Shown here one piece after another: positions 33,401 through 36,400 of a stretch of 64,000 bases of DNA (position 1 is the first letter of the stretch; every line of letters starts with the position of its first letter). Location of the stretch: assembly GCF_002854065.1 (NCBI RefSeq), contig NZ_CP024147.1. The stretch is one strand, 5' to 3'. The stretch is from Escherichia coli. Lineage in GTDB: Bacteria > Pseudomonadota > Gammaproteobacteria > Enterobacterales > Enterobacteriaceae. Made by a program: the position numbers.

Positions 33401-36400
33401 CGGCTGGGCGTTCGTCTGGCCGCATTTAGCCTGGCAGATAGCGAGCAGGGCCGTCGATCCGCTTAGCCGGGAAATTTACAACTTAAAAACCGATGCAGTA
33501 TTAGCGGGAATGTGGGTAGGCGTAATGGGCGTAAACGTGCTGCCTTCCACCGCGATGTTGATGATTATGTGTCTGAATTTGATGGGGGCAGGCGGCCCCC
33601 GTCTGTTTGTCGCGGGTCTGGTGTTGATGGTGGTTTCCTGCCTTGTCACCCTCGAGCTGACGGGCATTACCGTGTCGTTCAATAGTGCGCCGCTGGAATG
33701 GTGGCTCTCCCTTCCCATTATTGTCATTTATCCTCTGCTGTTTGGCTGGGTCAGCTACCAGACGGCGACTAAACTGGCGGAACATAAACGCAGGTTGCAG
33801 GTCATGAGTACCCGCGACGGCATGACGGGCGTGTATAACCGACGTCATTGGGAAACTATGTTACGCAATGAATTTGATAACTGTCGGCGGCATAATCGCG
33901 ATGCAACGTTACTGATTATCGATATCGACCATTTCAAGAGCATCAACGATACCTGGGGCCATGATGTGGGCGATGAAGCGATTGTGGCGCTTACCCGACA
34001 GTTACAAATTACCCTGCGCGGTAGCGATGTGATTGGTCGGTTTGGCGGCGATGAGTTTGCAGTAATCATGTCCGGTACGCCAGCTGAGAGCGCCATTACC
34101 GCCATGTTACGGGTGCATGAAGGGCTAAATACATTACGTTTGCCGAATACGCCACAGGTAACTTTACGGATTAGTGTGGGGGTTGCGCCGCTGAACCCAC
34201 AAATGAGTCACTATCGTGAGTGGTTGAAATCGGCAGATTTGGCGCTTTACAAAGCAAAGAAAGCCGGACGTAACCGCACCGAAGTGGCGGCCTGACGTCC
34301 GGCGAAAGTCATCAGGATTTGCTGAGTTTTTCTGATTTTTCCATACACTTCGTCATCGCTTCGATCACTGCAGCACGGAAGCCTTTCTCTTCCAGTACGC
34401 GTACCGCTTCAATGGTGGTGCCTCCCGGTGAGCAGACCATATCTTTCAGTGCCCCCGGATGTTCTCCCGTTTCCAGCACCATTTTTGCGGAACCCATTAC
34501 CGCCTGAGCGGCAAATTTATACGCCTGGGCACGTGGCATCCCGCCCAGCACGGCGGCGTCGGCCATCGCTTCGATAAACATAAAGACGTAGGCTGGCGAA
34601 GAACCGCTCACACCGACCACCGGGTGGATCATCGGCTCAGCAATTACTTCCGCTTCGCCAAAGCAGCGGAAAATATTCAGCACATCAGCGGTATCTTCTG
34701 GGGTTACCAGCGCGTTTGGCGTTACCGAGGTCATCCCGGCATTAACCAGCGCGGGAGTGTTCGGCATGGCGCGGATAATTTTCCGGTCATGGCCCAGCGC
34801 GCGGGCAAGCTGGTCGAGCGTGACACCTGCAGCAATAGAAACGACCAGAGAGTCTTTATTCAGGCTGGAGGTGATTTCGCTAAGCACTTTAATCATGATG
34901 CCAGGTTTAACGGCAGCAAAAATGATGTCGGCGATTTGCGCCACTTCTTGCGCCGATTCTGCGGCGTTGATGCCGAACTGGTCATGCAGGGCGGCGACTT
35001 TATCCGGGGAGGGGGTGTATACCCAGATTTGCCCTGGAAGCACCTGACCGCTGGCAATCAGACCGCCGAGAATGGCTTTTCCCATATTGCCGCAGCCAAT
35101 AAAACCGATTTTCTTTTCCATTGCCTCACTCCTGCCGTGAAATTCATTGTTTTGATAATCGCTGGCAGAAGCATAAACAGAACTATGCCGGAAGGCAAAA
35201 GCGCGACACAATAGAGGATTACCCAACAAAGGATGACTTTATGACAATTTGGGTGGATGCCGACGCGTGTCCCAATGTAATTAAAGAGATTTTGTATCGC
35301 GCGGCGGAACGTATGCAGATGCCGCTGGTACTGGTAGCAAACCAGAGTTTACGCGTGCCGCCATCGCGATTTATTCGTACGCTGCGCGTCGCGGCAGGTT
35401 TCGACGTTGCCGATAACGAAATTGTCCGGCAGTGTGAAGCGGGCGATTTGGTGATCACCGCAGATATACCTTTGGCTGCTGAAGCCATCGAGAAAGGCGC
35501 TGCGGCGCTTAATCCGCGCGGTGAACGTTACACGCCAGCGACCATTCGTGAGCGCCTGACGATGCGCGATTTTATGGATACCTTACGTGCCAGTGGGATC
35601 CAGACCGGCGGACCAGATAGCCTTTCACAACGTGACCGCCAGGCCTTTGCCGCGGAGCTGGAGAAGTGGTGGCTGGAATTGCAACGTAGTCGTGGCTAAA
35701 TGTAATTTATTATTTACACTTCATTCTTGAATATTTATTGGTATAGTAAGGGATGTATTGAGATTTTCACTTTAAGTGGAATTTTTTCTTTACAATCGAA
35801 ATTGTACTAGTTTGATGGTATGATCGCTATTCTCATGACACCGGCTTTCGCCGCATTGCGACCTATTGGGGAAAACCCACGATGACACAACCTCTTTTTC
35901 TGATCGGGCCTCGGGGCTGTGGTAAAACAACGGTCGGAATGGCCCTTGCCGATTCGCTTAACCGTCGGTTTGTCGATACCGATCAGTGGTTGCAATCACA
36001 GCTCAATATGACGGTCGCGGAGATCGTCGAAAGGGAAGAGTGGGCGGGATTTCGCGCCAGAGAAACGGCGGCGCTGGAAGCGGTAACTGCGCCATCCACC
36101 GTTATCGCTACAGGCGGCGGCATTATTCTGACGGAATTTAATCGTCACTTCATGAAAAATAACGGGATCGTGGTTTATTTGTGTGCGCCAGTATCAGTCC
36201 TGGTTAACCGACTGCAAGCTGCACCGGAAGAAGATTTACGGCCAACCTTAACGGGAAAACCGCTGAGCGAAGAAGTTCAGGAAGTGCTGGAAGAACGCGA
36301 TGCGCTATATCGCGAAGTTGCGCATATTATCATCGACGCAACAAACGAACCCAGCCAGGTGATTTCTGAAATTCGCAGCGCCCTGGCACAGACGATCAAT

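What the first reader, a model, noticed from the sequence alone, without database searches (positions are those of the whole stretch)
35700..35881. aroL promoter region carrying a TyrR box and a TrpR-operator-like site
TGTAATTTATTATTTACA matches the TyrR box consensus TGTAAA-N6-TTTACA, and GTACTAGTT further downstream resembles a TrpR half-operator. This fits the known dual repression of aroL and indicates the regulatory region is intact in this strain.
Basis: established knowledge. Interest (0 to 1): 0.2.

Follow-up and report, generated by a model that had tools for sequence, protein, structure and literature searches.

The report
Known aroL promoter with TyrR/TrpR sites
This is the ordinary, already well-studied control region in front of the E. 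coli shikimate kinase gene aroL, with its repressor binding sites intact; the only mild point of interest is a second, little-noticed promoter that sits under the tryptophan-repressor site.

Summary
TGTAATTTATTATTTACA lies at 35701-35718 and GTACTAGTT at 35804-35812, in the 182-bp yaiI-aroL intergenic region of an E. coli chromosome. That region matches K-12 MG1655 at 181 of 182 bases.

A third, weak box (35754-35771) sits 23 bp from that one.

The TrpR-like 18-mer (35804-35821) ranks 2nd in the window. At 14.3 bits it scores below the four classical operators.

Published start-site maps put the main start (P1) at 35755. Box 3, box 1, the P1 -10 and the TrpR block are conserved across 21 Escherichia/Citrobacter sequences; box 2 is not.

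One extra: the right half of the TrpR site overlaps an invariant extended -10 (TGgTATGAT). Two high-throughput datasets map a second start (P2) at 35829-35832.

Verdict: already known, interpretation supported, low interest.

The parts
35701..35718 (+). A strong box at -54..-37 of P1, starting 2 nt after the yaiI stop codon.
   Evidence: 11 of 12 consensus positions, with the G-N14-C positions kept. Held-out matrix 21.7 bits, rank 1 in the window. Both arms are conserved in 21 Escherichia/Citrobacter sequences: 11 of 12 arm columns invariant. Returned by the RegulonDB TyrR matrix scan in the PMC2760140 supplement.
35739..35747 (+). P1 extended -10 element, TGgTATAGT (TG at -16/-15, TATAGT at -13..-8). 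The -35 region is poor.
   Evidence: 8 of 9 columns invariant in alignment A2. Its geometry fits the mapped start site. Given as the -10 of the known aroLp in the PMC2760140 supplement.
35755..35755 (+). P1 transcription start (G), 127 nt upstream of the aroL ATG.
   Evidence: Three datasets agree. Kim et al. 2012 give a 127-nt UTR with 136 reads. Mendoza-Vargas 2009 give -127 and call it known aroLp. Cappable-seq gives U00096.2 position 405502.
35754..35771 (+). TyrR box 2, TGTATTGAGATTTTCACT. A weak box overlapping the P1 start (-1..+17).
   Evidence: 8 of 12 consensus positions with G-N14-C kept; its centre is 23 bp from box 1, the same spacing as the strong/weak pairs of aroF, tyrP and aroP. 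The matrix gives only 6.0 bits, rank 39. It is not conserved in Citrobacter. Returned by the RegulonDB matrix scan in the PMC2760140 supplement.
35777..35794 (+). TyrR box 1, TGGAATTTTTTCTTTACA. A strong box at +23..+40 of P1 and -55..-38 of P2.
   Evidence: 10 of 12 consensus positions. 18.0 bits, rank 2 in the window. Arms conserved; the distance to box 3 stays at 74-76 bp in all Escherichia/Citrobacter sequences. Returned by the matrix scan.
35804..35821 (+). TrpR operator-like 18-mer, GTACTAGTTTGATGGTAT, at +50..+67 of P1 and -28..-11 of P2.
   Evidence: 13 of 18 matches to the trp operator palindrome (left half 9/9). 14.3 bits, rank 2 in the window. Found at the same position, about -78 from the ATG, in 23 of 24 Escherichia/Citrobacter loci. 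Returned by the RegulonDB TrpR matrix in the PMC2760140 supplement with score 16.32.
35796..35832 (+). Candidate second promoter P2: -35-like TCGAAA (35796-35801), a 17-bp spacer, the extended -10 TGgTATGAT (35816-35824), and a start at 35829-35832.
   Evidence: It is the only promoter-like site the consensus scan called in 35500-36600. TGnTATGAT has 8 of 9 columns invariant, including in C. sedlakii, where the TrpR left half is lost. Cappable-seq maps a start at 405579, which is window 35832, with RRS 7.35 and log2 enrichment 3.9. A 454 read gives a start at -53, labelled 'New', with the same -10 and -35.
35882..36406 (+). aroL coding sequence (shikimate kinase II, 174 aa), the first gene of aroL-yaiA-aroM.
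   Evidence: ORF list. RefSeq annotation of matching genomes and of MG1655.

Best explanation
The stretch 35700-35881 is the characterised promoter-operator region of the E. coli aroL(-yaiA-aroM) transcription unit.

The main sigma-70 promoter P1 has an extended -10 (TGgTATAGT) and starts at 35755. It is bracketed by TyrR boxes:
- weak box 2 covers the start site;
- strong box 1 lies at +23..+40.

Inferred mechanism, from established knowledge of the TyrR regulon: TyrR dimers occupy the strong boxes. With tyrosine and ATP, TyrR forms a hexamer that bridges boxes 3 and 1, whose centres are 76 bp apart. This engages box 2, loops or occludes P1 and represses aroL.

Tryptophan-bound TrpR binds the half-degenerate operator at 35804-35821 and adds a modest further repression.

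Shown here: the sites, their scores, their positions relative to mapped starts, and their conservation. Taken from the literature rather than tested here: protein binding, hexamer bridging and the size of the effects.
For: - Identity of the locus. The region matches K-12 at 181 of 182 bases.
- Held-out TyrR matrix: ranks 1 and 2 of 63,983 positions. Simulations give P of 5e-5 or less locally, and 0 of 200 whole windows reach the top score.
- Geometry: the box spacing of 53 and 23 bp matches the aroF arrangement of 52 and 23 bp, and the 23-bp pairs of tyrP and aroP.
- Transcription start P1 is found in three independent datasets.
- Phylogenetic footprint: box 3 and box 1 arms, the P1 -10 and the TrpR block are conserved in 21 Escherichia/Citrobacter sequences, while the spacers between them vary.
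- The same four sites are returned by RegulonDB matrices.
- Literature: TyrR and TrpR repression of aroL (PMC5343134); hexamer-based repression of aroLM (PMC10170061); tyrR knock-down derepresses aroL (bioRxiv 10.64898/2025.12.20.695731); a Y. pestis tyrR deletion raises aroL 4.7-fold (PMC4325908).
Against: - The TrpR site scores below every classical operator (14.3 bits against 15.5-22.5 leave-one-out). 8.5% of simulated 64-kb windows contain an equally good site.
- A 2025 CRISPRi/reporter study found no measurable trpR effect on aroL.
- Box 2 cannot be told from background by sequence (6.0 bits, rank 39) and is not conserved outside Escherichia.
- The primary footprinting papers (Lawley & Pittard 1994; Heatwole & Somerville 1992) are not held in the library. 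The box numbering, the looping model and the TyrR-dependence of the TrpR effect therefore rest on my recollection of them.
- The tyrR and trpR genes were not looked for in this window; in K-12 MG1655 they lie about 1 Mb and 0.4 Mb away from aroL. So 'regulation intact in this strain' is shown only for the cis elements.
Confidence: 0.93

Rival explanations
1. Two promoters, one repressor each. The TrpR-like site is mainly the operator of a separate downstream promoter P2 (extended -10 TGgTATGAT, start 35829-35832). TrpR blocks P2 by ordinary promoter occlusion. TyrR controls P1. The reported TyrR-TrpR 'synergy' arises because the TrpR effect on P2 shows only once TyrR has shut off the stronger P1.
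For: - P2 is the only site the sigma-70 scan called.
- Starts are mapped at 35832 by Cappable-seq, which is triphosphate-enriched and gave RRS 7.35 against 4.74 for P1 in M9 glucose. A 454 read maps one at 35829.
- The chance that a Cappable-seq start lies within 3 nt of a predicted position is about 1.2%.
- P2 has the same geometry as P1: TG at -16/-15 and the hexamer at -13..-8.
- TGnTATGAT has 8 of 9 columns invariant and survives in C. sedlakii, where GTACTAG is lost. The Citrobacter change TGGTAT to TGATAT lowers the TrpR score to 9.3 bits but keeps TGn.
- Relative to P2 the TrpR 18-mer lies at -28..-11, a core-promoter position; from recollection, the classical TrpR operators also overlap their core promoters.
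- From memory, not verified: a 4-bp insertion between box 1 and the TrpR site increased tyrosine repression and abolished the tryptophan effect. That is what destroying the P2 spacer would do.
Against: - P2 is absent from the Kim et al. 2012 start-site list.
- The 454 support is a single read, and both Cappable-seq scores are low.
- No reporter or in vitro transcription data for P2 were found.
- The literature, as I recall it, attributes the TrpR effect to an interaction with TyrR at P1.
- trpR knock-down gave no measurable aroL change.
Confidence: 0.3
2. The motifs are chance matches in AT-rich intergenic DNA and have no regulatory role.
For: The region is only 35% G+C. The simple consensus count in the window, 3 matches, equals the chance expectation of 2.65.
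Against: - Held-out matrix scores rank 1 and 2 of 63,983 positions.
- Simulations with local composition give P = 5e-5 and 6.5e-4, and never produced two such sites together.
- The arms are invariant across genera while the spacers vary.
- The sequences equal the curated K-12 sites.
Confidence: 0.01
3. The reader's box acts alone as a simple repressor site next to the -35 region, like the single TyrR box of aroG, with no need for the downstream boxes.
For: Box 3 abuts the P1 -35 region at -54..-37. aroG has one perfect box.
Against: - A second strong box is conserved at a fixed 74-76 bp from box 3 in all Escherichia/Citrobacter sequences.
- The three-box geometry copies that of aroF.
- The literature describes hexamer-dependent repression at aroLM.
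Confidence: 0.05

Closest known systems
E. coli K-12 aroL promoter-operator (three TYR R boxes plus one TrpR site; Lawley & Pittard 1994, Heatwole & Somerville 1992)
   Same: The sequence matches at 181 of 182 bases. All three boxes, the TrpR site, both -10 elements and the position of the ATG are the same.
   Different: One substitution, 35753 A versus G in K-12. It lies at -3 of P1, one base outside the 18-bp core of weak box 2. The A allele is shared with O157:H7 and with other Escherichia species.
aroF-tyrA regulatory region (TyrR boxes 1-3)
   Same: A distal strong box sits 52-53 bp from an adjacent strong/weak pair whose centres are 23 bp apart (aroF 52 and 23 bp; aroL 53 and 23 bp). Repression is tyrosine- and hexamer-dependent.
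   Different: In aroL the weak box is the middle one, and the pair lies downstream of the transcription start. aroF has no TrpR site.
mtr regulatory region (TyrR boxes plus TrpR operator)
   Same: It is the only other E. coli promoter with both regulators. Its TrpR operator GTACTCGTGTACTGGTAC shares the TGGTA right arm with aroL.
   Different: At mtr TyrR activates and TrpR is the dominant repressor. At aroL TyrR is the dominant repressor and TrpR is minor.
Classical TrpR operators of trpEDCBA, aroH and trpR
   Same: The GTACTAG half-site is identical to the aroH/trp half.
   Different: The aroL right half matches at only 4 of 9 positions. The site lies at +50..+67 of the main promoter; it overlaps a core promoter only if P2 is counted.

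Membership tests
TyrR box (operator of the E. coli TyrR regulon) | 18-bp palindrome TGTAAA-N6-TTTACA | tested here: met
   Box 3 matches 11 of 12 positions, box 1 matches 10 of 12, box 2 matches 8 of 12.
TyrR box (operator of the E. coli TyrR regulon) | Symmetric G and C separated by 14 bp (G-N14-C) | tested here: met
   Present in all three aroL boxes, as in every box extracted from aroP, aroG, tyrR, tyrP, aroF and mtr.
TyrR box (operator of the E. coli TyrR regulon) | Score within the range of characterised boxes on a matrix that excludes aroL | tested here: met
   Box 3 scores 21.7 bits and box 1 scores 18.0 bits; the training boxes span 9.7-22.4 bits. Box 2, at 6.0 bits, fails this test taken alone.
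TyrR box (operator of the E. coli TyrR regulon) | Strong/weak pair with centres 23 bp apart | tested here: met
   The centres of boxes 2 and 1 are 23 bp apart, the same as the aroF, tyrP and aroP pairs.
TyrR box (operator of the E. coli TyrR regulon) | Bound by TyrR protein (footprint or ChIP) | not testable with these tools
   Known only through the literature. The RegulonDB matrices return these sites. The primary footprint papers are not held.
TrpR operator | About 18-bp palindrome related to GTACTAGTT.AACTAGTAC | tested here: inconclusive
   Left half 9 of 9, right half 4 of 9. The score of 14.3 bits is below the leave-one-out scores of the four known operators (15.5-22.5) but ranks 2nd in the window.
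TrpR operator | Overlaps core promoter elements of the regulated promoter | tested here: inconclusive
   Not met for P1 (+50..+67). Met for the high-throughput-mapped P2 (-28..-11).
TrpR operator | Conserved in orthologous promoters | tested here: met
   Present at about -78 from the ATG in 23 of 24 Escherichia/Citrobacter loci. RegPrecise counts TrpR-aroL regulation in 4 genomes.
TrpR operator | Bound by TrpR plus tryptophan | not testable with these tools
   Literature only. The title of Heatwole & Somerville 1992 was confirmed in a reference list, but the paper is not held.
Extended -10 sigma-70 promoter | TGn plus a TATAAT-like hexamer 7-8 nt upstream of a mapped triphosphate 5' end | tested here: met
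   P1 is TGgTATAGT with its start at 35755. P2 is TGgTATGAT with its start at 35829-35832. Both elements have 8 of 9 columns invariant.

The most novel reading that the evidence does not exclude
The aroL 'TrpR site' is really the operator of a distinct, evolutionarily conserved extended -10 promoter P2, starting 50-53 nt upstream of the ATG. aroL is then driven by two tandem promoters: P1 under TyrR and P2 under TrpR, with TyrR box 1 next to the P2 -35 region. The long-described TyrR-TrpR 'synergism', and the odd +58 operator position, would be consequences of promoter tandemness rather than of a protein-protein interaction.
Probability: 0.3. Interest if true: 0.35.

Novelty: already known. 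Interest (0 to 1): 0.12.

Why it matters
Mostly it does not. The result confirms that this strain carries the textbook aroL control region, which is useful only as an annotation check.

Two points have practical value:

- Anyone engineering aroL expression for aromatic-compound production should know that the 127-nt leader contains a second mapped start site (P2) under the TrpR site. Deleting the TyrR boxes or P1 alone may not give the expected result.
- The P2 reading offers a simple, testable alternative to the 30-year-old 'TyrR-TrpR interaction' explanation. It could also account for why a recent knock-down study saw no trpR effect.

Tried and rejected
- Primary papers: I tried to read Lawley & Pittard 1994 and Heatwole & Somerville 1992 by PubMed and PMC id. 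Neither is held. Details of their footprints are from memory and marked as such.
- Other start-site datasets: Thomason 2015 is not held. The supplements of Conway 2014 are not held.
- Simple consensus counting does not separate the boxes from chance, with 3 matches against 2.65 expected. A held-out matrix replaced it.
- Rfam scan of 35500-36100: only a sub-threshold GcvB match (17.5 bits against a gathering score of 42, E = 0.17). Rejected as chance.
- IHF consensus WATCAANNNNTTR: no match at 1 mismatch or fewer in the region, and only uninformative 2-mismatch matches. The IHF site recalled from the literature could not be located.
- The other top matrix hits both lie inside long ORFs and were treated as chance: TyrR-like 47247-47264, and TrpR-like 15117-15134 at 17.6 bits.
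- The 16-codon upstream ORF as a leader peptide: rejected as a conserved feature, because its ATG is absent in other Escherichia and in most Citrobacter sequences.
- The CRISPRa preprint on aroLp gave no information on which start site is used.

Full report
**Locus.** The window around the finding carries dgcC, proC (minus strand), yaiI, aroL, yaiA, aroM and ppnP. A 601-bp query spanning the finding matches 5,425 of 5,426 complete E. coli genomes, always annotated yaiI / aroL. The gene order equals that of K-12 MG1655. The reported interval 35700-35881 is exactly the yaiI-aroL intergenic region: the yaiI stop is at 35697-35699 and the aroL ATG at 35882. It differs from MG1655 at one base, 35753 A versus G.

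**Is the observation there, and is it more than chance?** TGTAATTTATTATTTACA is at 35701-35718, one mismatch to TGTAAA-N6-TTTACA. GTACTAGTT is at 35804-35812. Plain consensus counting is uninformative, with 3 matches at up to 2 mismatches against 2.65 expected.

I therefore fetched the upstream regions of aroP, aroG, tyrR, tyrP, aroF, mtr, tyrB, trpR, aroH and trpL from MG1655 and extracted their boxes. From 10 non-aroL boxes I built a symmetrised TyrR matrix.

| Site | Coordinates | Score | Rank in window |
|---|---|---|---|
| Box 1, TGGAATTTTTTCTTTACA | 35777-35794 | 18.0 bits | 2 |
| Box 2, TGTATTGAGATTTTCACT | 35754-35771 | 6.0 bits | 39 |

No simulated 64-kb window (0 of 200) reached 21.7 bits. 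With the local AT-rich composition, the probabilities in 182 bp are 5e-5 and 6.5e-4, and two such sites never occurred together in 20,000 trials.

A TrpR matrix from the trp, aroH, trpR and mtr operators scores GTACTAGTTTGATGGTAT (35804-35821) at 14.3 bits. That is rank 2 in the window with a local P of 3.5e-4. It is still below the leave-one-out scores of the real operators (15.5-22.5), and 8.5% of simulated windows reach it. The TyrR part is therefore beyond doubt. The TrpR part is a genuine half-operator that needs outside evidence.

**Anatomy relative to transcription.** Three published start-site maps agree on the main start (P1) 127 nt upstream of the ATG, at window 35755:
- Kim et al. 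2012, PMC3415461 supplement;
- Mendoza-Vargas et al. 2009, PMC2760140 supplement, 'known aroLp';
- Cappable-seq, PMC4782308 supplement, position 405502.

P1 has an extended -10, TGgTATAGT at 35739-35747, and a poor -35. Positions relative to P1:
- box 3 at -54..-37;
- box 2 at -1..+17;
- box 1 at +23..+40;
- TrpR 18-mer at +50..+67.

Centre-to-centre distances are 53 bp (box 3 to box 2), 23 bp (box 2 to box 1) and 76 bp (box 3 to box 1). The 53/23 pattern copies aroF (52/23), and 23 bp is also the pair spacing in tyrP and aroP. The same four sites are what the RegulonDB matrices return for K-12 aroL.

**Comparative evidence.** A genome scan with AroL returned 6 Escherichia and about 18 Citrobacter species.
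- Both strong boxes are found at constant positions, about -181 and -105 from the ATG, 74-76 bp apart.
- The TrpR-like 18-mer is at about -78 in 23 of 24 loci.

In the 21-sequence alignment A2:
- the box 3 arms have 11 of 12 columns invariant and the box 1 arms 8 of 12;
- the N6 centres and the inter-site spacers vary (mean identity 0.6-0.77);
- the P1 TGnTATAGT has 8 of 9 columns invariant;
- box 2 is not conserved outside Escherichia (3-8 of 12 consensus matches).

The last point fits my recollection that box 2 is dispensable for regulation.

**Mechanism.** Taken from the literature rather than tested here:
- TyrR represses aroLM through tyrosine-induced hexamers (PMC10170061);
- aroL is under both TyrR and TrpR (PMC5343134);
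- tyrR knock-down derepresses aroL, whereas trpR knock-down has no measurable effect (bioRxiv 10.64898/2025.12.20.695731).

The geometry found here, with two conserved strong boxes bracketing P1 and a weak box on the start site, is what the hexamer-bridging model requires. I recall the looping evidence and the TyrR-dependence of the TrpR effect from Lawley & Pittard 1994 and Heatwole & Somerville 1992. These papers could not be read.

**A wrinkle: a second promoter under the TrpR site.**
- The only sigma-70-like site the consensus scan called is TCGAAA-17-TATGAT with an upstream TG, at 35796-35824.
- TGnTATGAT has 8 of 9 columns invariant across the 21 sequences. This includes C. sedlakii, where the GTACTAG half is lost.
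- The Citrobacter variant TGATAT lowers the TrpR score to 9.3 bits but keeps TGn.
- From this I predicted a start near 35831. Cappable-seq lists one at 405579, which is window 35832, with RRS 7.35 against 4.74 for P1 and log2 enrichment 3.9, in M9 glucose.
- Mendoza-Vargas lists a 'New' start at -53, window 35829, with the same -10 and -35.
- The chance of such a coincidence is about 1%.
- Kim et al. 2012 do not list this start.

Relative to P2 the TrpR 18-mer lies at -28..-11 and box 1 at -55..-38. This allows a two-promoter reading of the 'synergism', which I rate at about 0.3. The start site itself is not new, having been reported in high-throughput tables. As far as I could find, it has not been characterised.

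**Population check on 'intact'.** The 182-bp region is at least 99% identical (one mismatch or fewer) in 3,342 genomes and 95-99% identical in 2,083. It is 100% identical in O157:H7 strains, among others. One strain, 18AR0366, has an IS1A inserted at about 35743/35744, inside the P1 -10. That shows what a disrupted region looks like, and this window is not like that.

**Verdict.** The feature is already known and of low interest.

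Noticed in passing
window 35796-35832: A second promoter-like element (TCGAAA, 17-bp spacer, TGgTATGAT) overlaps the TrpR site. 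Its extended -10 is invariant in 21 Escherichia/Citrobacter sequences. Starts are mapped at 35832 by Cappable-seq and at 35829 by a single 454 read, but Kim et al. 2012 do not list it.
   Followed up: yes
window 35754-35771: TyrR box 2 is weak (6.0 bits, rank 39) and not conserved in Citrobacter, unlike boxes 1 and 3.
   Followed up: yes
window 35753: The only difference from K-12 in the intergenic region is A instead of G, at -3 of P1 and one base outside box 2. The A allele is shared by O157:H7 and other Escherichia species.
   Followed up: partly
window 35835-35885: A 16-codon upstream ORF ([16 protein letters not shown]) has a stop codon that overlaps the aroL ATG (ATGA). Its ATG lies 3-6 nt from the P2 start. 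The ATG is not conserved in other Escherichia or in most Citrobacter sequences.
   Followed up: partly
window 35848-35861 and 35867-35879: Two small hairpins are predicted in the aroL leader. In the first (UCGC-N6-GCGA) the outer pair changes U-A to C-G in the Citrobacter sequences. The second pairs the Shine-Dalgarno GGG with CCC just before the ATG. The covariation support is weak (-0.95 kcal/mol).
   Followed up: partly
window ~35793, minus strand: Kim et al. 2012 list a weak antisense start (4 reads, assigned to proC). Its -10, TACAAT, is the reverse complement of 35801-35806, inside the box 1 / TrpR interval. This -10 is not conserved in Citrobacter.
   Followed up: no
L055 (E. coli 18AR0366, NZ_CM132283.1) 1788-2485: An IS1A is inserted between yaiI and aroL at the equivalent of window 35743/35744, splitting the P1 -10 and separating box 3 from the rest. 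It is the only such case among 5,426 genomes.
   Followed up: partly
window 38357-38632: An IS1 InsA-like ORF lies just downstream of ppnP. MG1655 has ykiA/ykiD/rdgC at that position and no IS1.
   Followed up: no
window 15117-15134 and 47247-47264: These are the best TrpR-matrix hit in the window (GTACCAGTTCAATGGTGC, 17.6 bits) and the third-best TyrR hit (TGTAAGCGAGTATTTACT, 13.0 bits). Both lie inside long ORFs and are probably chance matches.
   Followed up: partly
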